This document shows, piece by piece, positions 1,390 to 45,288 of a stretch of 64,000 nucleotides of DNA. The position numbers were made by a program, and so were the translations under genes. Source of the stretch: Azolla caroliniana (Eukaryota > Plantae > Polypodiophyta); the NCBI GenBank assembly GCA_043228905.1, contig JBHGNT010000015.1:310001-374000 (forward strand), read 5' to 3'. Under the pieces are notes generated by a model. It saw only the letters and a list, made by a program, of their open reading frames with translations, did no database searches and was not told the DNA's origin. The stretch's first letter is position 1. Every line of letters starts with the position of its first letter.

Positions 1390-1448
1390 GCGGCAAGCTC
1401 AACTAGAGCCGGATCGGCTGGATAAGCCTGAGCCGGCAAGCGAGACGG
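1384..1448 (+). mobile_element. Copia 3' LTR, left part (interrupted by gypsy element A)
   Basis: Starts TGTTGA immediately after the PPT and ends at the ACGG target-site duplication (1445-1448). Confidence 0.8.
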
Positions 1449-1686
1449 TGTCGTGAAGTTTCGCGCACGTGTGTTACTTGGGCGGGACCACGGGGGTCTC
1501 GGACTAGGGAGTACTCAAGGGATAGAGAAGACCCGAGGTTTGCTTTACAACAATACTACTTCCCGACCCCTTCCCGAGCAAGGTCTCGTTGCCCTTTGTT
1601 TTGTGAGGCCGGTGGCTCTCGTTGATCACGACTACCAATTTATGTCGCGAAGTTTCGCGCACGTGTGTTACTTGGGCGGGACCCGT

Positions 1687-2413
1687 TGTCGTGCCTTTCG
1701 GCTCCGGATCGTTTGCGTGAGTCGGGTGGGAACCACTGGGGTTTTGGACTAGGAAGAGGAGAGTTTTAAGGCTAATAAGAATATAAATATGTTGTAAGAA
1801 AGAGTTATAGCAAACTCGTGAATCCCACGAGTATATTGTATTAGATTAATCAATATGAATATAAGAATATAAATTTGGGTTGAAAGAGAATGATATAGAA
1901 TCCTCGTGAATCCCACGAGTATAGTTTATTAATTGGTGTTTTTTTAGAAACATATCCAGTTTCCAAGTATTTCACACACCTATTACATTGTGCTCCCCAT
2001 CCTTATGTAGTGATGGGAGAGACTAAGCATAGCTACATGCTTTTTTTTCTAATATGTTCATGCGCTTTTATTTGCTAAATATAGTGCTCATGCACGCTAG
2101 ATGTGCATGAGTCACTTTTTAGTTGCTTGCGTTTTTCTATAAAATATTCACGCACTCTAAAAATGCACGATTTACCTTTTAATAAAGGTAGGTGCAAATA
2201 AAGCAGTTATAGTTATTAAATCTATTTATAGAACACTAAAGATAAGGTAGTATAATGGTAAAGTTGAGGTTTGGCTACGTGGAGGTACAGGGTTCAAATC
2301 TTGCCCTATGCACGTGATAAATATCTTGATATATTATTTTATTTATTTATATGTAATTAAATCGGTTATATTATTTTTACTTTTTCACGTAGTGTACGAA
2401 ATACACTACGACA
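1687..2413 (-). repeat. 3' LTR of element C (727 bp)
   Basis: Direct repeat of 4336-5061; ends TGTCGT/ACGACA. Confidence 0.95.
2241..2311 (+). promoter_or_regulatory. tRNA-like (SINE-head-like) Pol III A/B-box module in LTR C; second copy at about 4889-4959
   Basis: TAGTATAATGGTAAAG (A-box-like) ... GGTTCAAATC (B-box) at tRNA spacing, followed by T-runs. The cloverleaf is degenerate. Confidence 0.55.
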
Positions 2414-4297
2414 CTCGCCCCCTCCGAACCCGCACATCCTCCGGTATGTGCCGAAGTTGCCGATGCTCGTTGTCTCCCCTTCATCCTCCGTTTGTCCCGC
2501 TATGTCAACTTTGTCTCTCCATTTTGAGTAGACCCATTCTTTCCACCCGAACCATTGTCGCCATCCGATCCACCATATTCTTTGTTCTCTCTCGTCATAT
2601 TCTTGGCCCTTGTCATTCGTGGTAGTGTCTTTTACTGGCCTCTTTCTTGTCTTCATCAACCTTGACTTTTTTCCGGATCGCTCTCGTCCGATCAACTTTC
2701 GGTTTGATCGGCTTCCGATCGGATTCGTATTCGGCCGAATCGGAATCTGTTGTTCGGTTTCGATTGAGTCGGTCTCCTTCCGGCCCGGTTTCGATCTATC
2801 GGTTTCGGTTTCGGTTGGCTTTCTTTTCCTCGTTTTCACCAGCCTCGACCGGTCCAACCTCCGGTTGAGTCGGATTAGCTTCTTTTTGGATCGGTCTCGT
2901 CCGATCGGCTTTCGGCTAGGTTGGCTTCCATCCATATTCACGTTCGGCCAAGTCAGACTCAATCGATCGGTTTTGACCGAGTCGACCCCTTTTCGGGTCG
3001 GCTTTCTTTCGGATCGGAATCCCGTCCGGATCACCTTCCATCCAAACCGGCTTCCGACTTTACCTTTCTTGCTGCCACCTCCCGTCTCTCCGGTCTCACG
3101 TTGGTTCTCGGACACAACTGCCGAAGTCTCTAGAATTAGTGGGTAGGAATCCTCGGTATTATCATCCTCCATTGTTTCACCCATAGCCATATTCTCGGCT
3201 ATCTCTCCGTCGTATGCATCGACTTTGACCTTTGTTTTCTCTCCGCCACCTTCCGTCTCTTCGGTCTCACGTTGCCTTTCGAACGCAACCGCCGGAGTCT
3301 CTAGAATCAGTGGTGGGGAAGTCTCGATATGGCCATCCGTCGTTGATTCGTCCATAGCCACCTTCGATTCGATGTCATCTTTCGTGGCGACCTCCTCAAT
3401 CAAGTCCTCCTTGCTCTCTTTCACTGCATCAATTATGCAAACATCAATTATGCTTACCCCTTTTTCACCCGATGTTTCGGACACTTGTATTCCGAAATCT
3501 TCTTCTACACTTGGGTTATCGGCCTTATCCTTCGCCATCGTTCTTTCGCAAGACAAGAGGGTAGCTTGTTTTACACCCTCTTCCGTCGCACCATCATGTT
3601 GTATTTCGGCCTTCATATCGGCTCCATCGTTTGTCTTCAATCGACCATCCTTCATCGGCCATGTCGTTGACAAGATTCTCATCTTCCTCTCATCATGTCT
3701 CCGGCATACCCTTTGGACTTCGGCCCAATCTTCAGTAAGACCATTCGTACCGTCATCGTCTTCGAGTTCAATCCCGATGTCCTTCCTTTCTTTTCGATCG
3801 ATCGATTTTACGAACATTAGGACTTTATCCTCCCCCACCAATCGTTGTTCCCGCTCCGAGAGTTGAGCAAGACGATGCTCGAACTCTAGGAATGCTTGTG
3901 TTGCACTTCGGTGGGTCTTCTCCGATGCCACCCATTCGTCGAATTTTCGCCGATCTTGTCCCTTTGATCTCTTGTAATCATATGTCTCTCGTAAAGCTTC
4001 TTCGAATGACCCCCATGTCGAGTTTTGTTGCCGTATCTTGTAGATTCTTTCTTGTAGCTCATTCGTGGCCACCCGATTGAAGGATGTCACTTGCAATCCT
4101 TCCGGTATCCCACATCGTATCATCTCCGCCTTGTAGTCACGTAGATAGCATGACACATCGTTTCCGTTGAATTGTCCGTTTCGTTGTACGAGCCGCTTTA
4201 CTGCCCCCGTGATCTCCGACATCACTCGTTGTTCTTGTAGCATCCGCTCGAACATCATCATCATCGTTATGCTCATTGCCTCTTGTTGATTCTCCAT
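2366..4297 (-). CDS. gag: Gag-derived protein of element C: capsid-like N-terminus plus acidic and basic repeat tail, no zinc knuckle (about 643 aa from ATG 4297)
   Basis: The N-terminal ~200 aa align by eye with Gag of B (FERMLQEQR.MSEI, NGQFNG.DVS.YL.DYKAEM, GLQVTSFNRVAT, DKV.MF, GLTE.W). The ORF is uninterrupted and ends inside the 3' LTR. Confidence 0.8.
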   Translation of the reverse strand: MENQQEAMSITMMMMFERMLQEQRVMSEITGAVKRLVQRNGQFNGNDVSCYLRDYKAEMIRCGIPEGLQVTSFNRVATNELQERIYKIRQQNSTWGSFEEALRETYDYKRSKGQDRRKFDEWVASEKTHRSATQAFLEFEHRLAQLSEREQRLVGEDKVLMFVKSIDRKERKDIGIELEDDDGTNGLTEDWAEVQRVCRRHDERKMRILSTTWPMKDGRLKTNDGADMKAEIQHDGATEEGVKQATLLSCERTMAKDKADNPSVEEDFGIQVSETSGEKGVSIIDVCIIDAVKESKEDLIEEVATKDDIESKVAMDESTTDGHIETSPPLILETPAVAFERQRETEETEGGGEKTKVKVDAYDGEIAENMAMGETMEDDNTEDSYPLILETSAVVSENQRETGETGGGSKKGKVGSRFGWKVIRTGFRSERKPTRKGVDSVKTDRLSLTWPNVNMDGSQPSRKPIGRDRSKKKLIRLNRRLDRSRLVKTRKRKPTETETDRSKPGRKETDSIETEQQIPIRPNTNPIGSRSNRKLIGRERSGKKSRLMKTRKRPVKDTTTNDKGQEYDEREQRIWWIGWRQWFGWKEWVYSKWRDKVDIAGQTEDEGETTSIGNFGTYRRMCGFGGGECRSVFRTLREKVKII

Positions 4298-4335
4298 CTC
4301 CTTGCCACCCGCCTTCACGTCGGGTTCACCAAATG

Positions 4336-5061
4336 TGTCGTGCCTTTCGGCTCCGGATCGTTTGCGTGAGTCGGGTGGGAACCACTGGGGTTTTGGACTA
4401 GGAAGAGGAGAGTTTTAAGGCTAATAAGAATATAAATATGTTGTAAGAAAGAGTTATAGCAAACTCGTGAATCCCACGAGTATATTGTATTAGATTAATC
4501 AATATGAATATAAGAATATAAATTTGGGTTGAAAGAGAATGATATAGAATCCTCGTGAATCCCACGAGTATAGTTTATTAATTGGTGTTTTTTAGAAACA
4601 TATCCAGTTTCCAAGTATTTCACACACCTATTACATTGTGCTCCCCATCCTTATGTAGTGATGGGAGAGACTAAGCATAGCTACATGCTTTTTTTTCTAA
4701 TATGTTCATGCGCTTTTATTTGCTAAATATAGTGCTCATGCACGCTAGATGTGCATGAGTCACTTTTTAGTTGCTTGCGTTTTTCTATAAAATATTCACG
4801 CACTCTAAAAATGCACGATTTACCTTTTAATAAAGGTAGGTGCAAATAAAGCAGTTATAGTTATTAAATCTATTTATAGAACACTAAAGATAAGGTAGTA
4901 TAATGGTAAAGTTGAGGTTTGGCTACGTGGAGGTACAGGGTTCAAATCTTGCCCTATGCACGTGATAAATATCTTGATATATTATTTTATTTATTTATAT
5001 GTAATTAAATCGGTTATATTATTTTTACTTTTTCACGTAGTGTACGAAATACACTACGACA
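4336..5061 (-). repeat. 5' LTR of element C (726 bp)
   Basis: Direct repeat of 1687-2413, followed on the minus strand by CATT and the PBS TGGTGAACCCGACGTGAA. Confidence 0.95.
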
Positions 5062-5722
5062 CCGTTGTGGTAACCACCGTCTCTATGGCCCGGTCTAGGC
5101 CGGTGATGCCTTCTCAGGCATTTACCAAGCGGTCCGCCGCCGCCGCCTTCGCTTCAGCGAGTTCTCCTCCTCGCATCTTGATTTTCCCTTGCCGCCCTTT
5201 CACGTCGGGTTCACCAATTTATGTCGCGAAGTTTTGCGCACGTGTGTTACTTGGGCGGGACCACGGGAGTCTCGGACTAGGGAGTACTCAAGGGATAGAG
5301 AAGACCCGAGGTTTGCTTTACGACAATACTACTTCCCGACCCCTTCCCGAGCAAGGTCTCGTTGCCCTTTGTTTTGTGAGGCCGGTGGCTCTCGTTGATC
5401 ACGACTCATCGACCTTCTGAGATCACCGTACGAGCCAAGTGACCAAACGAGTACAAGCAAGATGAGCACGCAACATGAATGCACAAGGGGACGATAACAC
5501 AAACACGAATGTCCGTACGGCTTTATGAGGAGGAGAGGTGCATGGGCGCGCCCGAACGCTCCCTCGTCACAAGACGTCGAACGTACAAGGAAGACACAAA
5601 ACACATGCACAAAATGCTCGTATGCCTTTATGAGGAGGAGAGGTGCATGGGCAAGCCCGAACGGTCCCCTCGTCACAAGACGACCGAACGTACAAGGAAG
5701 ACACAAACACACACACAAATGC
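5062..5722 (-). repeat. Internal duplicate of element A LTR 3' part (5722->5222), PBS (5199-5216) and gag start
   Basis: Matches about 9518-10180 with scattered substitutions. Confidence 0.9.
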
Positions 5723-7515
5723 TCACGTTTTACTTGGGCGTATCCTCGTTGTCTCTCGCTTAAGACCTTGGCTCCGAACCCGATGGCATAGCGTGTACCA
5801 TCCTCTCCTTCTTGGTTGATGACCCATCCGATCCCTGTTGGACTCGTATCTACTGTCACGTAGATGGGCACCCCTTCCTTGTATAGGGCTTTTCGTAAAG
5901 CTGGTGCCGCTACCAAAATTCCTTTGAGCCTCTTCATTGCCTCTGTGTGCTCTTCCTCCCACTTGAACTTCCGCCCCTTCTTGAGTAGCCCATACAAGGG
6001 CTCGGCTAGGTGAGCATAGTGCCGGATCCAGATGTGGTAGAATGCACAAGCACCAAGAAATCGCCTCACCTCTGTTTGCGATTTACATTCTTCTCTCATG
6101 TTTGTGATGGCGTCCACCTTTGCTGGGGATGGCTTCCGTCCGTACGCCCCGCACAAGTGTCCCACCACAAGGATCTCTGGTTGGCCGAATGCCGATTTCT
6201 CACCCGAGAAGGTCAAGCGTGCATCTTCGAGTCTTTGTAGAACCTTCTCGCAATCGGAGATGTGATATGCCACAAAACGTCTGCACCCAGCCTCGTCCAA
6301 GGTTTCATCTTTCTCCGCTTCAGAGCACCCTTTTATGGGGATGTCATCGAGGAATGGCATGGTGATGTCAGGATGCAATCTCTCAATACCTTGTTCATTG
6401 CATTTACCATGTGGGCTACAAAGTTAGTGCCTCCTTGTAGCAAGGTACACATTCGCACTAGGCCAATAGGGGTCCGCATCGTCCTGATGTCCCTACTCTC
6501 CACAGCTAGTTGGAATTGATCATACCCTGAGTATAGATCACCGATAGAATAAATAGACCTTCCAGCGAAGGCCTCGGAGAATTCGTCAACGCTCGGTCCG
6601 ACCCCGGCATTTCGAATTGTCACTTGATTAACATGTTGTAGGTCCTGGATGAAGCGTAATGTGTCGTTCTTCTTTGGCACAGTGAACCACCGATTTGAGT
6701 ATGGAGCGCTAGATGGCTCGAGGATACCCATCTCGATCTTTTCCTTAAGTAGCTCAATCAACTTTGGGATGTGAGCTCTCGGAACGGGGATTGGCTTGAT
6801 GTTCCACGGTACATGCGGCACCGTAAAGATCACCATTGGCTCCACGATCTTAGGGTTTACACACCCTATCTCACCCGACGAGAAGGCGAAAGCCCTTCCG
6901 TGGCTTTCGATCATTCTTCTAAATCTTTCCTCCTCCCTAGGCAATAGGAAGCCACCCCCACCAATCCAGAGCTTCTGTCGCGTCTCATCGGTGAACCGAT
7001 GCCCTATGCCTCGTGGGTCCCGCAAGCTAGGATCAGTCGCTACCCCCTTTATCCGATCCCAACTATCGTTAGGCAATGGGGCAGCCACAGGCTTCACCTT
7101 CTTGTCCATGGTCTTGTACTTTGTTTGTACCTTGACCGTCCTCACTTCCTCAATCAACCGCCCAAGCTTTTCGATGGCGGTGTACATGTCAACTGAGTTG
7201 ACTGGAATTACCTTGTCTTCATTGAGGCCCGAAATGACTACCCTCTCCATCTCTCTAAGAGTGTCGTCAAACGAGACCACCTCCATGGCGCCGCTTATGG
7301 TATCATCTTCCCCCAATAAATTACATTGTTTGAGATACCGTTCGTATCTCTTGGCCCTAGACTTATCTCTATCACTTAAACTAGTAATTTTACAAGCTCC
7401 ATTTTCGGAGAACCAAAATTTATTCCTATTACATAATAGTTTTACAAGGGTTTAGGGTCTTAGTTTGCCTCGGGCTATTGCGGCCCCACTCTTTAATAGC
7501 CCGAATCAAAAATCC
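5723..7515 (-). pseudogene. pol: Element A RT-RNase H (frameshifted, truncated in RNase H, integrase deleted)
   Basis: PYSNRWFTVPKK, DLYSGYDQFQL, PFLDDIP, VDTSPTGIGW. Frameshift near 6370. The sequence jumps into the LTR repeat after GYAQVKRE. Confidence 0.92.
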
Positions 7516-8278
7516 TCTCGGCTATCCCCTTTGAGGGAGGCTCGATTGCGCTCATGGTTGGGCCTCACTGTAAGGAATTGGACCGAATGCTTCCCATCTT
7601 GGCTCTTGACCCTCGCATATGCCGACCCATTGTCTAGCACCTTCGTCTCCATACGAGCCTCCGTGATGTATGGTTCACCCAAGATGACCGGGTGCGAGGA
7701 CATCTCTTGAACAAAGAAATTTTGATCTATTTCTACGTCCCCCACCTTCACACGTACATTCAGGCAAGCCCCGTATAGCTCCTCGGTTGCTCAGGGGTCG
7801 CCGCTCTAATCTTCCACTCGTGCTTCGTGTTGATCGGCCACTTTCCCTTTTTATAAAAGTCCATGGACATAAGGTTGATCTCAGAGCCATGGTCGATCAA
7901 TGCTACCACCGGCTCTTTTACATCTCCGACCCGTACCGGTGTCTCCGTTGTCACTCTCGCCCAATGCGGCCTCATGTAGTGACTGTCCGCATAGTCTTCG
8001 TCTTCCTCGGGGACCTCAGTTGACAATGCATTTACAATCGCGGGTTTTGCCACTTCTTGCTCCGTTGAGAGTCGCTTCCTCTTCATTAGGTCAATGATGT
8101 CCTCGTGGAATTCTTTCTTGGCAATTCCGAGAACCTCTCGCAGAGTAAACTCTACGCGACTATCGAGGATCCTCTCCTCCACTACCTTCTTCAAGTCCGT
8201 TGCTTGTTCGATCTCCGAGCAAAGCTTGAAGTTGTGGGGGTTCCCCTTCTCTTTCCATCTTTCGTCGCATGCTTGAGA
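7506..8278 (-). pseudogene. Element A aspartic protease region (frameshifted)
   Basis: ALIDHGSEINLMS and VILGEPYI motifs; collinear with 13017-13775 of B. Confidence 0.9.
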
Positions 8279-9633
8279 CTAGTTCGGCTCTTCCCTTCTT
8301 CGTGCACCTCGAGCGTCGTATTTCCTTGATGGACCGGCTCCCTCGTGATTTCCTACCTTCTTCTCTTCTACCATTACTTCGTAGTTTTGGCAAGCGGCTT
8401 CCACTAAGCCTGTCTTTTCTTCCACCGGATCCTTCCACCCGATTGCTTCTTGGACCCTTCTTTCCGCCTCGTCTCATTCTTCTCTTTTAAACTTCCCCTT
8501 CGAGAGGCTTCCAAGGATTGACGGCCAAAAGTCAAACTCTTTCTCCTCTTGCCTCCTCACCTCTCTCCCCACTCGGATCCCAACCGACGCCGAGTAGTGG
8601 ACGACTTCAACATGTCGTGCTTCGGCCTCCTCCATTAGCCTTCTCATGCCCCCTCGGCCTTGATTCAATCCCAAGGGGCGCCTTGTCTCCGTCGAATAGA
8701 CCCTATTGTTCCAAAGATAGACAATATCCACACTCCCTTCGTAGGTGGTCGGGGTTGTCGCACCACATACATCTTTGCGCGAACGAGGGATGTCGATCTT
8801 GAGGGCCGCCACTCTCTCTCCTAGCTTGCGCTATTTGGAGATCTCGCACCATCTTTGTGAACTCGTCTATTGCCGACCCTCCCGACGGTGCTTCAACCAC
8901 GTTTCTCTCGGGGATGAACCTTGCATTTGGTTGCTCTCTTTCTTGAGGTATTCTACCACCCCTGGGTTCGTGTGTCTCACTAATGGAGCTTGTGGATGTT
9001 TGGCCGCTCAACGGAGACCCGTCATTCCATTCCCTTCTCTTATCGAAGCAGCTACAAACCCATTTTACCATAGCCCAATCCGTCGTGAGCCCATCATCAT
9101 TTTCGAGGAGGGACCCCACCTTCTCTCGGTCTCGTGCATCAACAGTCTTTATGAATAGTAGGACTTTGCTTGTGTCAAACACCATCCTATCGAGCGTCGA
9201 GAGTCGCGCAAAGCGCTTCTCAAATTCTTGTAAAAGTATCATAGTATTTCTCCCCTTGCCGGGAAGGTCAACCCACTCCATTAGATCCCTTTTCGAAATT
9301 CTGAGTGAGTCATCAAGGCCGTACTTCTCGAGGAGTCTTTCTTCGAACTCCACCCAATTGCAACAGTCCGCTTGGATCTCGAGTACCTCCGCGTGGATAC
9401 TCGGCGTTACCACTCTAGCGAATCCGGTTAGCCGCCTATCTTCGGGGATGTTTCGCATAAGCATTTCGGCCTTATAGGCATCCAAGTAGCTCGTGATATC
9501 TCTTCCATTGAACCGACCCGTTGTGGTAACCACCGTCTCTATGGCCCGGTCTAGGCCGGTGATGCCTTCTCAGGCATTTACCAAGCGGTCCGCCGCCGCC
9601 GCCTTCGCTTCAGCGAGTTCTCCTCCTCACATC
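8279..9633 (-). pseudogene. gag: Element A gag (stops and frameshifts)
   Basis: GRFNGRDITSYLDAYKAEM; zinc knuckle CMWCDNPDHLRREC (CX2CX4HX4C). Confidence 0.88.
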
Positions 9634-9954
9634 TTGATTTTCCCTTGCCGCCCTTTCACGTCGGGTTCACCAATTTATGTCGCGAAGTTTTGCGCACGTG
9701 TGTTACTTGGGCGGGACCACGGGAGTCTCGGACTAGGGAGTACTCAAGGGATAGAGAAGACCCGAGGTTTGCTTTACGACAATACTACTTCCCGACCCCT
9801 TCCCGAGCAAGGTCTCGTTGCCCTTTGTTTTGTGAGTTCGGTGGCTCTCGTTGATCACGACTCGTCGACCTTCCGAGATCACCATACGAGCCAAGTGACC
9901 AAACGAGTACAAGCAAGATGAGCACGCAACATGAATGCACAAGGGGACGATAAC

Positions 9955-10212
9955 ACAAACACGAATGTCCGTACGTCTTTATGAGGAGGAGAGGTGCATG
10001 GGCGCGCCCGAACGCTCCCTCGTCACAAGACGTCGAATGTACGAGGAAGACACAAAACACATGCACAAAATGCTCGTACGCCTTTATGAGGAGGAGAGGT
10101 GCATGGACAAGCCCGAACGGTCCCCTCGTCACAAGACGGCCGAACGTACAAGGAAGACACAAACACACACACAAATGCTCGTACGCCTTTATGAGGAGAG
10201 GTGCATGGGCAA
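9955..10212. repeat. ~105-bp tandem repeat inside LTR A (continues 19392-19745; copy at 5500-5722)
   Basis: Unit ACAAGACGGCCGAACGTACAAGGAAGACAC...CTTTATGAGGAGGAGAGGTGCATGGGCAAGCCCGAACGGTCCCCTCGTC; about 6 units, split by the PLE insertion. Confidence 0.9.
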
Positions 10213-10437
10213 TTATTGCTATGACCGTAGGATCGTGACAAGGAGTGTGAGCGAACTAGCACAACTATTGAGATGATATGGGAAGAGTAAGAAAAGAAAT
10301 AAAGCAATGATGCAAGTGAAACTAAGGTGAGTAGGATTAGAGGTGACCAAGAGTAAAAGAGAATGAGAGAATGAGATGAAAGAAGAAGAGAAGAGTGAGT
10401 GAGAAAAGAGAAAAGCTTAAGAAATTTTCATTAGAAA

Positions 10438-10489
10438 GACCTTGTGCAAACTAGTTTCGCTCTAGGTAGAGCTCATTAGTGCCAAGGTC
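10438..10489 (-). ncRNA. Minimal type-I hammerhead ribozyme of the PLE (core variant CUAAUGA)
   Basis: Minus strand reads GACCTTG-GCA CTAATGA GCTCTA-CC-TAGAGC GAAAC-TA-GTT TGC-A-CAAGGTC: stem I, core, stem II, GAAA, palindromic mini stem III. Confidence 0.75.
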
Positions 10490-10523
10490 ATTTACAACAA
10501 GAGGGTAGGTTTATATAGGGGGA

Positions 10524-10526
<3 letters not shown>

Positions 10527-10581
<55 letters not shown>
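10527..10581. repeat. (GA)n microsatellite within the PLE 3' region
   Basis: Perfect dinucleotide run. Confidence 0.95.
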
Positions 10582-10588
<7 letters not shown>

Positions 10589-10836
10589 AGAAAATAGGAG
10601 TTTAATGATGGGAGAGAGGGAAACGAGGAATTGTGATAGGTAATGGATTGGTTAGTGAAAGTGGGTTAGAGGGGGGTTATATGTATGTACATGATAAGTG
10701 ATAGGTGGGGGTGGGTGTGGGGGTGGGATATAAAAGGCATATAGTATTAAGTGGGAGTATTTATGGATTTATATTTAGTTTTGACGAGAAGGGAATGAAT
10801 GGACTTAGACTTAGTCCAACATATGAAGGGTCGCGG

Positions 10837-11697
10837 TGTCGTAGTGTAGGTTGCACACTATGTGGAAATTATATTTTTGTCCCTCCGGATAGAGAATGGA
10901 GTGCTCGGTGGGAACCGGAAGAAAACGGCTTACCGGCAAGGAGGAAAAACGGCTTACCGGCAAGGAGGAAAAAACGGCATACCGGCAAGGAGGAAAACGG
11001 CATACCGGCAAGGAAGAAAACGGCATACCGGCAAGGAAGAGCCGGATAAAGAGACATAAATGTAAAAGGAAAGGAAATACTCACTACTGCGCAAGGCGCG
11101 ATTCGAACTCTGCACCTCCACGTTGACAAACCCCAACCTTACCATTACATTAACTTATCTTAAGTGTTTTAAATATAGATTTAATACGTATAAGACCTTT
11201 ATTTATGCATACCTTTATTAAAAGGTAAATCGTGTATTTTTTTAATATATGAAAAAGAAAAACACGAGACACTAAAAATAACTCATGCACATCTAGCGTG
11301 CATGAGCCCTATACTTAGGAAATAAAAAAGCATCACATGCACATTTAGTGGACATGAACACTTTTTGTAAAAAAAAAAAAAAAGCATGAAGCCATGCTTA
11401 GCTCTTCCTTCCTTATATAAGGAGGAGAGAAATATGTAAAGGGTTGTTGATTATTTGGATTAAGAATTAATCAATACAAAAATTATTCGTGGGATTCACG
11501 ATTTATACGTCTACTTCTCTCTTAACACCCTAAGTACTAATTAATATAGTATACTCGTGTGATTCACGAGTTTCTTATCTTTCTCTTTGCTATTTACTCA
11601 TAATTAATCTCTATCTCACGAACTTCTTTCTCCTAGTCCAAGACCTCTGTGGTTCCCACCCGACTCACGCAACGATCCGGAGCCGAAAGGCACGACA
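10837..11697 (+). repeat. 5' LTR of element B (contains 5 x ~23-bp direct repeats at about 10922-11039)
   Basis: TGTCGTAG...CACGACA; unit AAAACGGCWTACCGGCAAGGARG x5. Confidence 0.96.
11088..11159 (-). promoter_or_regulatory. tRNA-like Pol III A/B-box module in LTR B (copy at about 17616-17687)
   Basis: Minus strand TAATGTAATGGTAAGG...GAGGTGCAGAGTTCGAATC. Confidence 0.55.
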
Positions 11698-11701
11698 CAG
11701 T

Positions 11702-11719
11702 TGGTGAACCCGACGTGAA
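11702..11719 (+). promoter_or_regulatory. Primer-binding site complementary to the 3' end of tRNA-Trp
   Basis: TGGTGAACCCGACGTGAA is the reverse complement of TTCACGTCGGGTTCA+CCA, the plant tRNA-Trp(CCA) 3' end as I recall it. The identical 18-mer occurs in A and C. Confidence 0.85.
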
Positions 11720-11735
11720 GACGGGTGGCAAGGAG

Positions 11736-13016
11736 ATGGAGGCTCAACAAGCTAACAATATGATGGCGATGTTCGAACGGATGCTTCAAGAACAACGCAC
11801 GATGTCGGAGATTTCGGCATCAGTAGAGCGGCTCATGCAACGCAACGGGCAATTTAATGGTAAGGATGTGTCGCGATATTTGCAGGACTACAAGGCGGAG
11901 ATGCTCCGGTGCCGGGCTTCGGAAGGACTGCAAGTGACATCCTTTAACCGGGTGGCGACCGACGGGCTTCAAGGGAGTATCCACGGGTTGCAACAACAAA
12001 ATCCGACGTGGGAAGCATTCGAAGAGGCGTTAAAGACCACGTTTGCCATCGAGGACTCCTCCAAGGCAACGCGGAGGGGATTCGAGGATTGGGTGGAAAC
12101 GTCAGGTAAGGGGCTGAAGGTCCTCGAAGTGTTTTCGGCATTCGAAAGTCGGTTCGGGAGGTTGTCCGCGAGAGATCAAACTATTCTTGCACCGGACAAA
12201 GTCATCATGTTTTTGCGAGCTGTGGATGTCCGGGACCGGAAAGATCTCGGAGTGCTTCTTGAGGACACGACCACTGAAAGCGGCCTCACCGAAACATGGG
12301 AAAGCGTGCGGGATATCGTCGCGCGGTACACGAAGAGGGGGCAATGGCTTGCCAACGAAGAAAAGAGGGTTTCGGAACCGATTCCGAAACCGAGAACGGG
12401 ACTGGAAGACCATCAACCGAGGGCTCGGGAGATTACGGCCGAGAAGGGAGTCGACGCGTCTACGGTGGAGCAGCTGCTGAAGGAGATGGAGAATCTAAAG
12501 ATCGCGATGGTGAAGAAGTCGGATGACCGCCCCACAAGCTCCAAATATACGGATCGACGGTGCATATGGTGCGATAGCGCCGAACACGATCGGAGGGATT
12601 GCGACGACCATAAGGAGGCACTACGACGGGATCTCATCTACTACGAGGGAAACCGGATTCATTCGATGGACTCTCGGAAGCCACTCCGACCGAACTTCCG
12701 GAAAGGCGGCATGAAGAAGGTGCTCGAGGAGGAGTTAGCGGCAAGAAGCAACTATGCGACAACCGCGGGAATATGTGTCGGGGAGTCAACGGGAGCGAAG
12801 GCGTCTTTCTGGCCGGAGGTGCTAGGAAACACCGAGAAAACCGACTCCAACGATATCCGAAACACCGCGGAAGGCGTCCGGGAAGCTACGGGATGGGAGT
12901 GCCCTGTCGACAAGAATAGCATATACGCCCTGTGTCAATTACATGAGGTGTATGTGGACGAGAAACGACGGCGCACGGAGGATGCGGCCGGACCATCGAA
13001 GATACCGGAAAGCTAG
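11736..13016 (+). CDS. gag: Gag of element B
   Basis: Intact ORF with zinc knuckle CIWCDSAEHDRRDC; ends at a TAG in frame with the protease. Confidence 0.92.
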   Translation: MEAQQANNMMAMFERMLQEQRTMSEISASVERLMQRNGQFNGKDVSRYLQDYKAEMLRCRASEGLQVTSFNRVATDGLQGSIHGLQQQNPTWEAFEEALKTTFAIEDSSKATRRGFEDWVETSGKGLKVLEVFSAFESRFGRLSARDQTILAPDKVIMFLRAVDVRDRKDLGVLLEDTTTESGLTETWESVRDIVARYTKRGQWLANEEKRVSEPIPKPRTGLEDHQPRAREITAEKGVDASTVEQLLKEMENLKIAMVKKSDDRPTSSKYTDRRCIWCDSAEHDRRDCDDHKEALRRDLIYYEGNRIHSMDSRKPLRPNFRKGGMKKVLEEELAARSNYATTAGICVGESTGAKASFWPEVLGNTEKTDSNDIRNTAEGVREATGWECPVDKNSIYALCQLHEVYVDEKRRRTEDAAGPSKIPES

Positions 13017-13775
13017 AACTCCGGAGGTAAGGGAAAAGAAAAGGCGACTCCGGCATTCAAGCTCGCCTCGGACATAGAACAACAAACCGACTTGAAAAGA
13101 GTGTTCGAGGAAAGAATCTTGGATAGCCGGGTAGATTTTTCGTTGCGGGAACTACTCGGAATAGCGAAGAAGGAGTTTCACGATCTTCTCGTGGATCTCG
13201 TGAAAAGGAAGAGACAAAGTACGGAGGAAAATGCTCCAAGGGTGAATGCAAATACCGTTTCAACGAACGACACCGAAGTGGAAGGCGAAATTCCGAACTC
13301 CCACTATACAAGGCCACACTGGGCCCGTGCGACTACGGAGACTCCGGTCCGAATCGGCAACATCAAAGAACCCGTGCTAGCACTGATTGATCACGGATCG
13401 GAGATCAACTTGATGTCCAAGGAGTTCTACCGAAAGGGGAAGTGGCCTATAAACACCAACCATGGATGGAAGATTCGGGCAGCCACGAAAACGACAGAAG
13501 ACCTATTTGCGGCTTGTCCGGATGTGACGGTAAAGATCGGGGATGTCGAAATTGACCAAAATTTCTTTGTGCAGGATGAGGTTTCACATTCTGTCATCCT
13601 CGGCCAACCCTTTATCACGGCTTCACGGATGGAGACGAAGGTGCTCGATAGTGGTGCGGCTTTTGCGCGAATTCGGAGCCAAAATGGAGGGAAATCCGTC
13701 CAATTCCTAACGGTGCCGGCAAATCACGAAAGGAACAAGAGGGAACTCTTGTCCCAAGTGAGAATGGATTTTTAA
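13017..13775 (+). CDS. Aspartic protease region of element B (same frame as gag, separated by one TAG)
   Basis: Open from 13017; ALIDHGSEINLMS and VILGQPFI; ends ATG GAT TTT TAA. Confidence 0.88.
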   Translation, partial: NSGGKGKEKATPAFKLASDIEQQTDLKRVFEERILDSRVDFSLRELLGIAKKEFHDLLVDLVKRKRQSTEENAPRVNANTVSTNDTEVEGEIPNSHYTRPHWARATTETPVRIGNIKEPVLALIDHGSEINLMSKEFYRKGKWPINTNHGWKIRAATKTTEDLFAACPDVTVKIGDVEIDQNFFVQDEVSHSVILGQPFITASRMETKVLDSGAAFARIRSQNGGKSVQFLTVPANHERNKRELLSQVRMDF

Positions 13776-16700
13776 AGCGGACTGTTGCGGAGTGGGGAAG
13801 TGATAGTCCGAGAAGCCCTGATACCCCACACAGGAAGAAAACTCTTGGAGCAAAACAAGTACGAATCGGCCCGGATGGGGCATCTACGTACACGGCCGTA
13901 ACCGGAGGAATGAAGAAACAATACCGACAAGTGGAGGATAAGTTACGGTCGGCATCAATAATAAAAGAAGACGAAGAAATCGTGGGAGTGATCGAGGAAG
14001 TGTTCTATGGGAATACACTACAACGGCTTGAAGAGCTTGCGAAAGATAAAAGTCAAGGGAACCGGGTAGTCCCGGTGGAATCGGTCGAGATGTACGAGAT
14101 CGTTGCGAAAATGGGGCCGGATGCGCTCCGCAAAGAAGAAGCAATGGTAAGTACGAAATACAAGACCGTGGAGAAGAAGGTGAAACCGGCCGCGGGACCA
14201 CTACCTGCCGATAGCGAACAAAAGAGGAAAGAAGTCTCGGGAGATCCGACACTTCGGAAGACCGTGGATATCGGACATGCCTTCACAGATGAGACCCGGA
14301 AGAAACTTCGGATCGGTGGAGGTGGGTTCCTCTTACAAGAAGAAGAAAAACGGTTTCGAGAGATGTTGGAGCAACACGGCAAAGCATTCGCGTTCACATC
14401 GAGGGAGATCGGATGCATTGATCCAAAGATAGTGGAGCCGATGGTGATCTTCACGATTGATCATGTACCGTGGAACCTGAAGCCGATTCCGGTGCCACGG
14501 GCGCATATTCCGAAAGTCATCGACTTGCTCAAGGAGAAGGTGGCGATGGGGATTCTAGAGCCATCAAGTGCTCCGTACTCAAATCGATGGTTTACGGTTC
14601 CGAAGAAGAATGGGTCACTCCGATTCATCCAAGACTTGCAACCGGTGAACAAGGTCACGATCCGGAACTCGGGAGTCGGTCCGATAGTGGACGAATTCGC
14701 GGAAGCTTTTGCCGGACGTGCGATATACTCCATCGGGGACCTATACTCGGGGTATGACCAATTCCAACTAGCCGTGGAGAGCCGAGACATCACTACCATG
14801 CGGACACCGATAGGACTAGTTCGAATGTGCACACTACCACAAGGAGCGACAAACTCGGTTGCACATATGATGAACGCGATGAACAAGGTGCTTCAAGATT
14901 GCATCCCGGAGATAACGATGCCGTTTCTAGATGACATTCCGATGAAAGGATGCGCGGTGGAAGAAAAAGATGAGACTATGGATGATCGGGGATGCCGAAA
15001 GTTCGTGGTCGACCATATTCATGATTGCGAGAAAGTGTTGCGAAAGCTAGAAGATGTGCACCTAACACTTTCCGGGGAGAAATCGGCATTCGGGCAAGAA
15101 GAAATATTGGTGGTCGGACATCTATGTGGACCCTACGGTCGAAGACCGTCACCAACAAAGATCGATGCGATTCAAGCTATGAAGGAAGTATGTGAGTCAA
15201 CATCGGAAGTCCGAAGGTTTCTAGGTGCGTGTGCATTCTATCACATATGGATTCCGCACTATGCACATATAGCGGACCCGCTCTATCACTTGTTGCGGAA
15301 AGGTAAGAAATTCGAGTGGAAACCGGAACACACTAAAGCCATGAGGAAGCTCAAGAAGACACTATGGAGGGCGGAATCACTTAAGAAGCCAAGCTACGAG
15401 CGGCCAATCATAGTAACGGTTGATACAAGTCCAACCGGTATCGGGTGGGTCATCAATCAAGCCGACTCGGATGGTTCGTGGTATCCGATCCGATTTGGAG
15501 CAAAGGTCCTCAACGAAAGGCAACGCGGATATGCACAAGTCAAAAGAGAATTGTGGGGAGTCGTGTCGGCGATAAAATCGGATCGGGATTATTTGATCGG
15601 AGCTGAAGTGGTGATCGAGACGGATTGTCTTCCGATACTCGGGATGATGCGGTGTTGTACGATACCGGATGTGGCTATGCTAAGGTGGATTGCATATGTC
15701 AAGTCACTTAATCCGGAGGTTCGACACATCTCGGGGAAGGACAACGCGGTAGCGGACATGTTATCGAGGGCGCGGTTTGAAGACGACATAACCGAATCAG
15801 ATAATGAAGAAGTTTCCGAAGACTACTTCACGTCAGAACACATATGCCGAGTGAACGTGATCCGAGAATTCCGGGAAGAAGAATACGAGGGGGAAACCTT
15901 GATGATCGGGAAGATGCTACAAGAGGTCGAGGATTCAACCAATGATAAAGAAAGGAGAGCCGAGATCCGAAGGAAGAAGAGGCAAGTCCAAAAGTTCTTC
16001 TTGGAAAACGGTTTAATATGGAGGACGCCGAAAAGACCGGATGGGATACCACTTCGAGTAGTCGGGACGAAAGAGCAACGAAACCGGATAATGTCCGAGT
16101 TCCACGAATCCGATTGGGCTGGACATCGAGGAACATGGGCAACTTTTGTGAAAATCAAGCAAAGATATTGGTGGAAGAACATGTATAAAGATGTCGCGGA
16201 GTTCACAGAAAGCTGCGAGAAATGTCAAGTCTACTCCGGGGTCCGACACCGAGATGAGCTGCATCCGACATTCTCACCGACAATCAACTTCAAGTGGATG
16301 GTCGACATTGTAGCTATGCCGACCGGGATTGGACAAAAGAAATACTTGGTGTTAGCTCGAGAAGATCTCACAAACCAAGTTGAAGGTCGAGCGCTTCGGA
16401 GGAAAACGTGTGCCGCGGTGTGCCAATTTCTTTTGGAAGAAGTGTTTTGTAGGTACGGCTGCGTAGGACAAGTGATTGCGGACCGGGGAGAACTCGACTC
16501 GGACAAAGCTAGGGGATTCTTCGCCAAACATGGAGTTCGGTTAACGTTGACAACGGCCTACAATCCGGAGGCCAACGGGAAGATCGAGCGAGGACATAGT
16601 CCGATCGTGAAAGCACTTGCGAAGGCATGCGACGGAAGGGTGAAGGATTGGCCACAAATGCTTCCGTATGCACTATGGGCGGATCGGACGACGCATAGCT

Positions 16701-17377
16701 CCGTGACCGGTTACATGCCGGCAGAACTCATGACCGGACAAGCACCGGTAATGCCAACGGAAACCGCAATCGCGACATGGACAATACTACCGTGGAAGGA
16801 AGAGATGAGCCGGGAAGAACTACTAGCGGTCCGGATACGACAACTGGAGGGAAGACCGAAAGATGTAGCGGAAGCGTCACGCCGACAACAAGAAGCACGG
16901 TTCCGGAACAAAAGCCGGTTCGACACAAAGCACCGACTACGACCGAGGAGGATTGAAGAAGGAGATTGGGTGATCGTCTATGATAGTAGCTTGGACCATC
17001 AACATACAACGATGCGGAAATTTGCGAAAAGGTGGTTCGGGCCGTACGAGGTTCGGAAGGTCTTCGACAACGGGACGTACCGACTGTCCGAGTTGGATGG
17101 AACAATACTACGAGTGCCTATAGCCGGGAAGCGGGTGAAGATTTTCAAGAAGCGGACCGACGACAAACCTTATGTGATCCAAGTCGAGGCCGACAACGAG
17201 GAGCAATCGGACGAAGACCACAATGATGCGGGAAGCGAAGAAAGTGGATTACAACTCATAGTCGACATAAGGGGAGAATCGGAGGAAGCTTCGGATGAAG
17301 ACGGATACGAAGAATCAAGAACTTCGGCACATACCGGAGGATGTGCGGGTTTGGAGGGGGCGAGTGTCGTAGTGTAG
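13766..17377 (+). CDS. pol: RT-RNase H-integrase of element B (-1 frame, open from the slippery site)
   Basis: RT FLDD, RNase H VDTS...ETDC...AD, integrase H..H/C..C, D,D(35)E (VDI, ADRG, KIER), GPY motif. The tail is acidic rather than a chromodomain. Confidence 0.95.
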   Translation, partial: GFLKRTVAEWGSDSPRSPDTPHRKKTLGAKQVRIGPDGASTYTAVTGGMKKQYRQVEDKLRSASIIKEDEEIVGVIEEVFYGNTLQRLEELAKDKSQGNRVVPVESVEMYEIVAKMGPDALRKEEAMVSTKYKTVEKKVKPAAGPLPADSEQKRKEVSGDPTLRKTVDIGHAFTDETRKKLRIGGGGFLLQEEEKRFREMLEQHGKAFAFTSREIGCIDPKIVEPMVIFTIDHVPWNLKPIPVPRAHIPKVIDLLKEKVAMGILEPSSAPYSNRWFTVPKKNGSLRFIQDLQPVNKVTIRNSGVGPIVDEFAEAFAGRAIYSIGDLYSGYDQFQLAVESRDITTMRTPIGLVRMCTLPQGATNSVAHMMNAMNKVLQDCIPEITMPFLDDIPMKGCAVEEKDETMDDRGCRKFVVDHIHDCEKVLRKLEDVHLTLSGEKSAFGQEEILVVGHLCGPYGRRPSPTKIDAIQAMKEVCESTSEVRRFLGACAFYHIWIPHYAHIADPLYHLLRKGKKFEWKPEHTKAMRKLKKTLWRAESLKKPSYERPIIVTVDTSPTGIGWVINQADSDGSWYPIRFGAKVLNERQRGYAQVKRELWGVVSAIKSDRDYLIGAEVVIETDCLPILGMMRCCTIPDVAMLRWIAYVKSLNPEVRHISGKDNAVADMLSRARFEDDITESDNEEVSEDYFTSEHICRVNVIREFREEEYEGETLMIGKMLQEVEDSTNDKERRAEIRRKKRQVQKFFLENGLIWRTPKRPDGIPLRVVGTKEQRNRIMSEFHESDWAGHRGTWATFVKIKQRYWWKNMYKDVAEFTESCEKCQVYSGVRHRDELHPTFSPTINFKWMVDIVAMPTGIGQKKYLVLAREDLTNQVEGRALRRKTCAAVCQFLLEEVFCRYGCVGQVIADRGELDSDKARGFFAKHGVRLTLTTAYNPEANGKIERGHSPIVKALAKACDGRVKDWPQMLPYALWADRTTHSSVTGYMPAELMTGQAPVMPTETAIATWTILPWKEEMSREELLAVRIRQLEGRPKDVAEASRRQQEARFRNKSRFDTKHRLRPRRIEEGDWVIVYDSSLDHQHTTMRKFAKRWFGPYEVRKVFDNGTYRLSELDGTILRVPIAGKRVKIFKKRTDDKPYVIQVEADNEEQSDEDHNDAGSEESGLQLIVDIRGESEEASDEDGYEESRTSAHTGGCAGLEGASVVV
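17353..17364 (+). promoter_or_regulatory. Polypurine tract of element B
   Basis: GGAGGGGGCGAG directly before the 3' LTR; same in C. Confidence 0.85.
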
Positions 17378-18225
17378 GTTGCACACTATGTGGAAATTAT
17401 ATTTTTGTCCCTCCGGATAGAGAATGGAGTGCTCGGTGGGAACCGGAAGAAAACGGCTTACCGGCAAGGAGGAAAAACGGCTTACCGGCAAGGAGGAAAA
17501 AACGGCATACCGGCAAGGAGGAAAACGGCATACCGGCAAGGAAGAAAACGGCATACCGGCAAGGAAGAGCCGGATAAAGAGACATAAATGTAAAAGGAAA
17601 GGAAATACTCACTACTGCGCAAGGTGCGATTCGAACTCTGCACCTCCACGTTGACAAACCCCAACCTTACCATTACATTAACTTATCTTAAGTGTTTTAA
17701 ATATAGATTTAATACGTATAAGACCTTTATTTATGCATACCTTTATTAAAAGGTAAATCGTGTATTTTTTTAATATATGAAAAAGAAAAACACGAGACAC
17801 TAAAAATAACTCATGCACATCTAGCGTGCATGAGCCCTATACTTAGGAAATAAAAAAGCATCACATGCACATTTAGTGGACATGAACACTTTTTGTAAAA
17901 AAAAAAAAAAAGCATGAAGCCATGCTTAGCTCTTCCTTCCTTATATAAGGAGGAGAGAAATATGTAAAGGGTTGTTGATTATTTGGATTAAGAATTAATC
18001 AATACAAAAATTATTCGTGGGATTCACGATTTATACGTCTACTTCTCTCTTAACACCCTAAGTACTAATTAATATAGTATACTCGTGTGATTCACGAGTT
18101 TCTTATCTTTCTCTTTGCTATTTACTCATAATTAATCTCTATCTCACGAACTTCTTTCTCCTAGTCCAAGACCTCTGTGGTTCCCACCCGACTCACGCAA
18201 CGATCCGGAGCCGAAAGGCACGACA
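17365..18225 (+). repeat. 3' LTR of element B
   Basis: Direct repeat of 10837-11697. Confidence 0.96.
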
Positions 18226-18229
18226 GCGG

Positions 18230-19391
18230 TAGTTCGGATAGTTGGGGATGTGTGGCTAAATCTGCATGGAGGTTTTCTAGCATGTCGTGAATTCCTAATC
18301 TAGGGGTATCTTTCGTATACCTAAGTTTGAAGATGACAGGTATAAGGGTACTTTTAGGTTTTCTACTAAATACTAGTGATTTCCTAGCGTTAAATGGCAC
18401 CTTTTTATAATTCTCTAATATAAAAGAAAGGGGATACCCTCTCTTAACTAATCTACTAAAAAATAGTTTTTTCATTCGAAGGAAACCTAAGGGGGTACTT
18501 TCTCTAATTAGGTATCGTTTTAGTTCATTAATAATAAAATGACGTTTTAAGTGAAGGGGGTGAACTGACGAGAATGAGAGATATTGGTAGGCATTTTGGG
18601 GCTTTTGGTAGCAATTAAAGGAGAAATGTGAATTCTTTAGGTTAATCCATAAATCTAAGAACGGTAATCTAAAGGGAGAAGTGGTGATGGTAATTTTGAT
18701 GCAATTATTAGTGGAGGTGTTATAGAACTAGAGGTAATTTTCTAATTCGGGTTTAGTACCTGTCCATATCCCGAATGCATCATCTATATATCTAGTGAAA
18801 TAAAAAAGATTAGGGTGTGATGGCTGGGAGTTCTCTAAGTGAGCTAAGAATAGGCATGCATAAACTACAGAAAAATTACTACCCATGGCTGTACCCTTGA
18901 CTTGTTGATAGATCATGTCATCAAAGGATAGAAAGTGATATTCTAATGTGAGTGTGCTAAGTGTATAGATAAGGTTAGTTTTAGAAGATGAAAAATGTGG
19001 GGTAATCATTTTTCGTAAAGCTTGGAGTCCTAACCTAGGGGGTATGCTGGGATATAAAGATTCAACATCAAAGGTGAAGATAAAGCTATTAGGGGGTGGG
19101 TTGAGATGTTTAAAGTCTGGACAAGGGAATGTGAGTCTTTCAAATATTGCTTTTAAAGGAGAAGGATAGGCATGAGTTGGTGGTGAAGCCATTTTGATGT
19201 TTGTTCAAAAAGGGAGTTATTGTATGAGCAAATAGGTCTAAAACCTATTGGGTTTTTATGGAGTTTTGGGAGGAAATAGATATTGCATACTTTGTACCCT
19301 TTTGAGGGTTTATGTAGTATGTAATTGGCTTCTATGTTGGATAGGGTACCAAGATGGTTATTAACAATGCTTTTCAATCTATAGGATAATT
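18230..19391 (-). pseudogene. Penelope-like element reverse transcriptase (5'-truncated, frameshifted)
   Basis: YFLPKLHK..RPI, YLKDS (shifted frame), FDVESLYPSIP, YQQVKGTAMGSNFS, RYIDDAFGIW, PFLDL, YQYL...S.HP and RGYP are PLE-type RT and thumb motifs. Confidence 0.9.
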
Positions 19392-20314
19392 CCTCGTCGC
19401 AAGACGGCCGAACGTACGAGGAAGACACAAACACACGCACAAATGCTCGTACGCCTTTATGAGGAGGAGAGGTGCATGGGCAAGCCCGAACGGTTCCCTC
19501 GTCACAAGACGGCCGAACGTACAAGGAAGACACAAATACACGCACAAAATGCTCGTACGCCTTTATGAGGAGGAGAGTTGCATGGGCAAGCCCGAACGGT
19601 CCCCTCGTCACAAGACGGTCGAACGTACAAGGAAGACACAAACACACATACAAATGCTCGTACGCCTTTATGAGGAGGAGAGGTGCATGGGCAAGCCCGA
19701 ACGGTCCCCTCGTCACAAGACGGCCGAACGTACAAGAAAGACACGAATAAAGAAAGAAGGAGAGAAAGAAACACGAACGATATTGACCAAAGAGTTAAAT
19801 ACGTGTTCGATTCTAACGCAAGAGGACCCTTTATAAAATAGGGTTTTGTTCACAATGGCAACTTATAGTTAACCACAAGCTCAATCAAAACATAAATATT
19901 AAATGCCCTTAGAGACAAGGCAAAACCGAACACGGCAAAGATGAACACACGAGCACCACCAAAATGCCAATCCCAACGAACCACAACCACCCGAACGGCG
20001 AGCACACGGGCTCGCAACGACGAACGGGGCGGAGCAACGTCGAACCAACGAAGCTTGGGCTCACGAGCAGTTCGAGTGCCGACGCGAATAAGATGAGCAC
20101 GTGGCGATGGGGGGATGAAGGGGTATGAGATGAAGAAAAGTGGTGAATAAGGAGATGAAAAGCTTTGAAGAAAAATTGGCGATAGTCTCCTCCTCCCAAA
20201 ACGTCCTCCTGAATGAGCCCCCCTCGACCTCCTTTTATAGGAAAAAAAGAAGGGGGGGGGGTCGCCAAATTTGTCTTCAATGAAAAGGAATAAAATTCCT
20301 TAAATCACGCTGTA

Positions 20315-20390
20315 ATATAAGACTAGATTCAAACCGTGCACCTCTAGGTACCAATCAATGTGACTATCCACTCACCCACTAACTCTATCT
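20315..20390 (-). promoter_or_regulatory. tRNA-like Pol III A/B-box module in LTR A
   Basis: Minus strand TAGTGGGTGAGTGGATAG...GAGGTGCACGGTTTGAATC, matching the motif in LTRs B and C. Confidence 0.45.
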
Positions 20391-20629
20391 TTTACAATAT
20401 AAAATTCTATCTCTCTAAATTAATAGTCTGTCTCCCCTCTACTTTTTATCTCTCCTCTCTCTTACTTTTTGCACAAGCTCCTATACCCCCTTTCCACCCT
20501 TTCTTTTCCTTTTTATTTTGCATATGCACAATTAATCACCTTTGTGTGCACACACATTGCACATGCACATTTTGACCCCCCCTTTCGCTGGTTTTTCCCA
20601 CTCTCGAGCACGCCACATCACGACAACGG

Positions 20630-44837: not shown

Positions 44838-44918
44838 CGTGGACGGCAGGATTCGAACCTGCGCGGGCGAACCCACATGATTTCTAGTCATGCCCGATAA
44901 CCACTCCGGCACGTCCAC
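44838..44918 (-). tRNA. trnS-AGA: tRNA-Ser(AGA), copy 1
   Basis: GTGGACGTGCCGGAGTGGTTATCGGGCATGACT-AGA-AATCATGTGGGTTCGCCCGCGCAGGTTCGAATCCTGCCGTCCACG, with long variable arm. Confidence 0.97.
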
Positions 44919-45021
44919 TGGATGAATGATCGCTCCATTCTTCATTAATACATATCTTATTTAAATCTATATGACGTGAATCGTCAAACAAACTTTGATT
45001 AGCTATTGCAGTGCTCGGAAA

Positions 45022-45102
45022 CGTGGACGGCAGGATTCGAACCTGCGCGGGCGAACCCACATGATTTCTAGTCATGCCCGATAACCACTCCGGCACGTCC
45101 AC
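45022..45102 (-). tRNA. trnS-AGA: tRNA-Ser(AGA), copy 2
   Basis: Identical 81-nt body. Confidence 0.97.
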
Positions 45103-45207
45103 TGGATGAATGATTACAGCATTCTTCATTAAAAGTCATCTTATTTAAATCTTCATGACGTGAAAGCCGTCAAACAAACTTTGATTAGCTGTTGGGGTGC
45201 TCGGCAA

Positions 45208-45288
45208 CGTGGACGGCAGGATTCGAACCTGCGCGGGCGAACCCACATGATTTCTAGTCATGCCCGATAACCACTCCGGCACGTCCAC
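45208..45288 (-). tRNA. trnS-AGA: tRNA-Ser(AGA), copy 3
   Basis: Identical 81-nt body. Confidence 0.97.

What the first reader, a model, noticed from the sequence alone, without database searches (positions are those of the whole stretch)
1445..20629. All three gypsy insertions chose a CpG-centred RCGG/CCGY 4-bp target
Seen: TSDs are ACGG (A), CCGT (C, which is ACGG on the other strand) and GCGG (B). All are 4 bp rather than the 5 bp usual for plant LTR elements, and all contain CCG/CGG. B found a CGG inside an AT-rich PLE. The elements are themselves visibly rich in CCGG/TCGG/CCGA, while the host gene region is CpG-poor. Inference: a chromodomain-less lineage whose integrase reads (methyl)CCG, so copies nest in other TEs and avoid genes, with CGG-rich bodies acting as landing pads. 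n=3 only.
Basis: partly seen in the sequence, partly recalled or inferred. Interest (0 to 1): 0.72.

Follow-up and report, generated by a model that had tools for sequence, protein, structure and literature searches.

The report
CpG-targeting Phygy-type retrotransposon nest
Three nested jumping genes here each sit in a duplicated four-base site centred on CG, a habit already published for the moss Phygy lineage to which they likely belong, and related copies favour ACGT rather than CCG, so this is largely known biology with a modest refinement.

Summary
Neumann et al. 2019 list the chromodomain-less Phygy lineage with 4-bp NCGN duplications (186 elements, 100% 4 bp) and tRNA-Trp priming. B fits: no chromodomain, a tRNA-type PBS recalled as Trp, protease core 58-65% identical to Physcomitrium proteins. 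Placement against named Phygy references was not possible. In 49 flanks of B/C-family LTR ends from metagenome contigs, 40 are NCGN and 9 are NTGN/NCAN (CpG-decay-like); none is anything else. The motif is VCGB with ACGT commonest (18 of 49). RCGG/CCGY is 10 of 49 and CCG/CGG 12 of 49, not enriched. TCGG/CCGA, abundant in the element bodies, was never used, and only 1 of 42 flanks lies in own-family pol, so the landing-pad idea is not supported. VCGB is a strict form of the foamy-virus VYRB target. Methyl-reading is untested; the predicted integrase fold shows no added reader domain.

The parts
1..1448 (+). Host Ty1/copia element: 3' end of pol and start of its 3' LTR (from about 1384), the target of A
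   Evidence: Copia-type RT/RNase H reading frame and PPT read from sequence; empty LTR seen in run X4
1445..1448 (+). TSD of A, left copy, ACGG
1449..20625 (-). Element A: rearranged Phygy-like element; 5' LTR 9678-20625 split by the PLE; gag-PR-RT, pol cut off in RNase H near 5725 (no integrase); then partial LTR-PBS-gag (5062-5724) and LTR pieces (1449-1683)
   Evidence: self-BLAST, ORFs, tblastn 65-71% to B pol over residues 75-633 only
1683..1686 (+). TSD of C, left copy, CCGT
   Evidence: empty-site copy at 9518-9521
1687..5061 (-). Element C: 3375-bp gag-only non-autonomous element; LTRs 1687-2413 and 4336-5061 differ by one base; PBS 4314-4331
5062..5065 (+). TSD of C, right copy, CCGT
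9655..9672 (-). PBS of A (second copy 5199-5216); first 18 bases the same as in B and C; tRNA 3'-end type, recalled as tRNA-Trp
   Evidence: tRNA identity recalled, searches for the tRNA found nothing
10213..19391 (-).
   Evidence: weak RVT_1 match E 5.8e-5; CpG 11 per kb; repeats; PLE identity not tested further
10833..10836 (+). TSD of B, left copy, GCGG
10837..18225 (+). Element B: 7389 bp; LTRs 10837-11697 and 17365-18225 (861 bp, one C/T difference at a CpG); PBS 11702-11719; gag 11637-13016, DUF4100-protease 13017-13775, pol 13652-17377; PPT before 17365
15866..17158 (+). Integrase of B: HHCC, D147-D206-E241, GPY/F SH3-like domain, followed by an acidic tail; no chromodomain
18226..18229 (+). 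TSD of B, right copy, GCGG
20626..20629 (+). TSD of A, right copy, ACGG; copia LTR continues to about 20995

Best explanation
A, B and C are chromodomain-less Ty3/gypsy retrotransposons, likely of the Phygy lineage, that sit in 4-bp duplicated targets centred on CG, and their integrase likely picks these sites by sequence, with family consensus VCGB and ACGT preferred. Shown: the TSDs, the motif in 49 related LTR ends, the lack of a chromodomain. Inferred from foamy-virus structures: a 4-bp staggered cut needs a sharp bend at the central pyrimidine-purine step and disfavours T first and A last (VYRB); this lineage would narrow YR to CG by direct base contacts, the candidates being the always-acidic residue at the PFV Ala188 position (E209) and the conserved QH..RKF loop of the GPY/F domain. 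Nesting would follow from target supply (young repeats hold 2-4 times more VCGB sites than the CpG-depleted gene region) plus selection against insertions in genes. The TG/CA exceptions are likely CG sites methylated and deaminated after insertion. A and C lack integrase and were likely inserted in trans.
For: Phygy: 186 elements, 4 bp (100%) NCGN, tRNA-Trp 81%, no extra domain (PMC6317226). B protease core 58-65% identical to 10 Physcomitrium patens predicted proteins; named integrase/pol relatives only in Riccia, Ceratopteris, Adiantum. 35 of 42 unique 3' flanks NCGN against 4.2% background, p=9e-42; with 7 further ends 40 of 49 NCGN, 9 NTGN/NCAN, 0 other; outer base T 1 of 98 against 33%, A 60 of 98 against 24%. 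TSD decay 7 of 42 matches decay of LTR CpGs in the same loci, 16 of 125, p=0.61. PFV consensus VYRB and T/A avoidance at positions 0/+3 for all four 4-bp retroviruses (PMC4422553); Ala188 and Arg329 make base contacts (PMC4005685). Top structural match of the model is the PFV target capture complex, E 1.5e-17. Position 209 is E in 75 and D in 3 of 78 sequences. Phygy nested in Tcn1 is reported in moss (PMC6911290).
Against: No RT-RH-INT tree with named Phygy references (REXdb files too large); the protease tree is a quick tree without outgroups and puts B in a clade beside, not inside, the moss/Adiantum/Riccia group. B is 7389 bp, below the published 7656-9968 range. tRNA-Trp identity is recalled. 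The 49 sites are mostly one-sided, from short contigs found by an exact 21-mer, cover only B/C relatives (LTRs 73-100% alike) and may come from few samples; of 3 two-sided cases 1 matched (L002) and 2 did not (L033, L027). All three window TSDs fall in a class holding 10 of 49 family sites (p=0.013, post hoc). Which residues read CG is untested, and the match of the loop to PFV Arg329 is recalled.
Confidence: 0.82

Rival explanations
1. The integrase reads methylated CG (first reader: methyl-CCG), which steers copies into silenced repeats and away from genes without a chromodomain.
For: Targets are CG-centred; all three window insertions and 19 of 42 flanks are in repeats; copies show many C>T and G>A changes, so these sites do become methylated; B used one of about 5 VCGB sites in a CpG-poor element.
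Against: CCG/CGG is not enriched and ACGT dominates, so the CCG form is rejected. No methyl-reader domain by Pfam or fold. Drosophila ZAM targets CGCGCg by intrinsic integrase binding (PMC2527525 abstract) in a host recalled to lack CpG methylation. Decay of TSDs shows methylation after insertion only.
Confidence: 0.1
2. There is no base-specific reading: the intasome only needs a bendable YR step, and CG wins because the targets are CG-rich; the TG/CA sites are primary targets.
For: All 49 centres are YR steps; 9 of 49 are TG/CA; outer-base rule equals the PFV VYRB rule.
Against: 0 of 49 centres are TA; CG is 4.2% of flank positions yet 83% of centres; the TG/CA share matches CpG decay in the LTRs; 4-bp retroviruses raise YR use only by 63% on average.
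Confidence: 0.05
3. A's subfamily has its own narrower RCGG/CCGY preference, distinct from the ACGT-biased B/C subfamilies.
For: A differs from B (65-71% pol identity, different LTR); 3 of 3 window TSDs are RCGG/CCGY (p=0.013).
Against: Two of the three are B/C elements, whose family is sampled and not RCGG-biased (2 of 2 against 10 of 49, p=0.052); A gives n=1; no A-type ends were in the 59 loci.
Confidence: 0.03

Closest known systems
Phygy lineage of non-chromovirus Ty3/gypsy elements (Neumann et al. 2019, PMC6317226; REXdb)
   Same: 4-bp NCGN TSD, no chromodomain or aRH, polyprotein fills the internal region, PBS recalled as tRNA-Trp; protease close to Physcomitrium proteins
   Different: Described there as specific to P. 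patens (later also named in a liverwort, PMC12885004); here in what is inferred to be a fern; B slightly shorter than the published range; finer motif VCGB/ACGT not stated in the text or supplement read
Prototype foamy virus integrase/intasome
   Same: 4-bp TSD, central YR, T disfavoured first and A last (consensus VYRB); closest solved integrase by sequence and fold
   Different: PFV preference is weak and takes any YR; here the centre is CG or its decay product in 49 of 49; Ala188 position is acidic
Drosophila ZAM errantivirus integrase (PMC2527525)
   Same: LTR element with a CG-based target (CGCGCg) recognised by the integrase itself
   Different: Other lineage and a longer target; relationship not tested here

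Membership tests
Phygy | Clusters with Phygy in RT-RH-INT phylogeny | tested here: inconclusive
   REXdb sequences unreadable. Protease core 58-65% identical to P. patens predicted proteins; quick tree without outgroup puts B's clade beside them. That these proteins are Phygy is inferred by elimination of Tcn1.
Phygy | 4-bp TSD with NCGN motif | tested here: met
   3 of 3 in the window; 40 of 49 related ends NCGN, the other 9 NTGN/NCAN
Phygy | tRNA-Trp primer binding site | tested here: inconclusive
   Same 18-nt TGG-starting PBS in A, B, C; Trp identity recalled; no matching tRNA gene found
Phygy | No chromodomain, no archaeal RNase H, no extra ORFs | tested here: met
   Pfam of B pol: RVT_1, RT_RNaseH, Integrase_H2C2, rve only; coding region fills 11637-17377; model ends in GPY/F domain
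Phygy | Size 7656-9968 bp (descriptive range from one species) | tested here: not met
   B is 7389 bp; A and C are rearranged or deleted. A range, not a defining trait.
Tcn1 chromovirus | Chromodomain, self-priming, 5-bp TSD | tested here: not met
Selgy | 4-bp TSD without CG motif, tRNA-Ala PBS, 4.4-6.7 kb | tested here: not met
   TSD has a CG motif and B is 7.4 kb; PBS identity recalled
Tat (TatI: 4 bp, tRNA-Trp) | Additional archaeal RNase H domain | tested here: not met
   No second RNase H family in B pol by Pfam

The most novel reading that the evidence does not exclude
The Phygy-type integrase is a near-absolute CpG reader that prefers 5-methyl-CG in VCGB context, using an acidic core residue and a conserved GPY/F loop, so that DNA methylation itself, not a chromodomain, steers a lineage spread across mosses, liverworts and ferns into silenced repeats.
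Probability: 0.1. Interest if true: 0.7.

Novelty: new member of a known kind. Interest (0 to 1): 0.22.

Why it matters
The CG-centred 4-bp target is already in print for Phygy, so the core finding is not new. What is added is modest: the trait extends to what is likely a fern, the motif is sharper than NCGN (VCGB, ACGT first), and it reads as an extreme form of the known foamy-virus VYRB rule. An intact-looking integrase (B) with this strict a target is a workable system for asking how an LTR integrase gains sequence specificity and whether methylation of the target matters.

Tried and rejected
No whole genome is held, so no genome-wide logo or background. Viral contigs gave no relative. Searches for the priming tRNA found nothing in viral or prokaryote contigs, in the 59 loci or in papers. 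Earlier findings of the scan: none. The Mycosphaerella TE paper was irrelevant; a link to fungal Ylt1 elements was considered and not tested; the RLG2/RLG3 paper search was empty. The careful protease tree did not finish; only the quick tree was read. Rejected: 5-bp TSDs; RCGG/CCGY or CCG as family motif; own bodies as preferred landing pads; chromodomain or methyl-binding domain in B. A depletion of C just outside the TSD (2 of 42 against 22%, p=0.004) is noted but uncorrected for multiple tests. Rows dropped before counting: of 59 loci, 14 ends followed by a PBS or PBS-like sequence and 3 duplicate sites (L036, L055, L058).

Full report
Observation. The window's first 21 kb is a nest. A copia 3' LTR (from about 1384) holds element A (1449-20625, minus strand). 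A's 5' LTR holds an AT-rich RT element (10213-19391), which holds element B (10837-18225, plus strand). A duplicated gag start of A holds element C (1687-5061, minus strand). All end TGTCG..CGACA. The duplications are ACGG, CCGT and GCGG and are 4 bp. Two have empty-site support: the other copy of A's gag start has one CCGT at 9518-9521, and 25 contigs of run X4 leave the stretch at 1448 with letters matching the window from 20630. B's LTRs differ by one base in 861 and C's by one indel, so both are very young. A has no integrase (pol stops in RNase H) and C has only gag. The composition claims hold: CpG 56-72 per kb in the elements, 19.7 in 21000-64000, 11 in the PLE.

What the elements are. 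B's pol matches RVT_1, RT_RNaseH, Integrase_H2C2 and rve, with DUF4100 and protease upstream and no chromodomain. A, B and C share an 18-base PBS, which I recall as complementary to plant tRNA-Trp; I could not confirm this by search. Named relatives among the best 120 hits of each search are from Physcomitrium patens, Riccia, Adiantum nelumboides and Ceratopteris richardii. The host is inferred to be a fern or other seed-free plant; this was not tested on host genes. B's protease core is 58-65% identical to 10 P. patens predicted proteins; a quick tree of 95 rows without outgroup places B's clade beside a group of moss, Adiantum and Riccia sequences. Neumann et al. 2019 (PMC6317226; outline, passages, sections 8 and 15 and Additional file 5 read) state that Phygy elements alone among plant lineages prefer a target motif, NCGN, and tabulate 186 elements, 4 bp in 100%, tRNA-Trp in 81%, 7656-9968 bp, no extra domain. 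Additional files 1 and 3 were too large to read, so tree membership is untested and the per-element TSDs may already show the finer motif below.

The real motif. An exact 21-base search for the shared B/C LTR end gave 59 metagenome loci. Fourteen ends were followed by a PBS or PBS-like sequence and 3 were duplicates, leaving 42 unique 3' flanks: 35 NCGN, 7 NTGN/NCAN, 0 other, against 4.2% NCGN in the flanks (p=9e-42). Seven more ends from the same loci give 49: 40 NCGN, 9 NTGN/NCAN; ACGT 18, RCGG/CCGY 10, CCG/CGG-containing 12; the outer base 5' of CG is T in 1 of 98 half-sites (33% expected) and A in 60 (24% expected). Among the 35 NCGN sites RCGG/CCGY (9; 18% expected, p=0.26) and CCG/CGG (11; 45% expected, p=0.13) are not enriched, ACGT is (14; 5.6% expected, p=2e-9), and TCGG/CCGA is absent (0; 7.0 expected). 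The TG/CA share (7 of 42) equals decay of three LTR CpGs in the same loci (16 of 125, p=0.61). Limits: sites are mostly one-sided; of three two-sided cases L002 matches (ACGT) and L033 and L027 do not; the probe selects young B/C copies; no A-type end was found; the contigs may stem from few samples and need not be the window's species. Against my reading, 3 of 3 versus 10 of 49 gives p=0.013, but the class was defined on these three, and 27% of random triples share some equally narrow motif (1.5% share RCGG itself).

Nesting. Of 42 flanks, 9 have a retroelement Pfam domain within about 1.2 kb (78 ORFs from 32 loci scanned, none matching a host-gene family), 2 more match copia RT or B pol by tblastn, and 14 match other loci by blastn; the union is 19. 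Only L025 lies in own-family pol; copia hosts are commoner. Flank CpG o/e is 0.88. Without a genome background this cannot show targeting of repeats beyond target supply and selection. Phygy nested in Tcn1 is already reported in moss (PMC6911290, passages), and Phygy is named in liverwort centromeres (PMC12885004, passages).

Mechanism. B's integrase is closest to PFV integrase among solved structures by sequence (E 1.7e-21) and by fold of the predicted model (mean pLDDT 85; top hit the PFV target capture complex); no extra reader domain appears. PFV's 4-bp consensus is VYRB with a sharply bent central YR, and all four 4-bp retroviruses avoid T first and A last (PMC4422553, passages and section 6); Ala188 and Arg329 contact target bases (PMC4005685, passages). 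VCGB is that rule with YR fixed to CG. The residue aligned to Ala188 is E in 75 and D in 3 of 78 sequences, and the GPY/F loop has Q379 (71), H380 (70), K385 (78). I infer direct reading of CG by these parts; this is untested, and the match of the loop to Arg329 is recalled. ZAM shows that an LTR integrase can bind a CG-rich target by itself (PMC2527525, abstract). Methyl-dependence cannot be tested with these data.

Novelty. The CG-centred 4-bp target is published. Paper searches found no report of Phygy targets in ferns or of a VCGB/ACGT bias, but the library lacks most subscription journals. Verdict: new member of a known kind, interest 0.22; methyl-CG reading stays open at about 0.1.

Noticed in passing
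window 44836-45481: Tandem array of four tRNA-Ser(AGA) genes on the minus strand with a 186-bp period.
   Followed up: no
window 1449-9677: Element A is a chain of LTR-PBS-gag pieces of shrinking length ending without PPT or integrase, yet has one TSD; suggests repeated template switching during reverse transcription followed by insertion in trans. C sits 3 bases from one of the junctions.
   Followed up: partly
window 13014-13016 and 13652-13775: B has one in-frame stop between gag and the DUF4100-protease frame, and pol overlaps in another frame; P. patens proteins run through this gag-protease junction without a stop, so it may be a mutation or a read-through site.
   Followed up: no
L002 10-80: A 71-bp mini solo LTR keeping both termini with a perfect ACGT duplication on both sides; low coverage, could be an assembly artefact.
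   Followed up: no
window 10837-10860, 5034-5061 and LTR 3' ends: B and C LTRs start with a TAGTGT..ACACTA inverted repeat and end with a GCC-GAAA-GGC hairpin just before CACGACA, both kept across the related loci.
   Followed up: no
window 9952-10212, 19392-19744, 5496-5724; 10917-11037: A's LTR carries 105-bp tandem repeats (the PLE inserted into them without a TSD); B's LTR carries five 23-bp repeats.
   Followed up: no
window 28778-63771: Compact host gene region: potassium-transporter-like, PPR, SF3B3-like, beta-1,3-glucanase-like, TMEM45-like and glutamine-amidotransferase-like reading frames (names by recall), with 223-bp and 76-bp tandem repeats; the glucanase exon alone is CpG-rich (o/e 0.99).
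   Followed up: no
L024: Two LTR ends of this family face each other in inverted orientation in a 1-kb contig.
   Followed up: no
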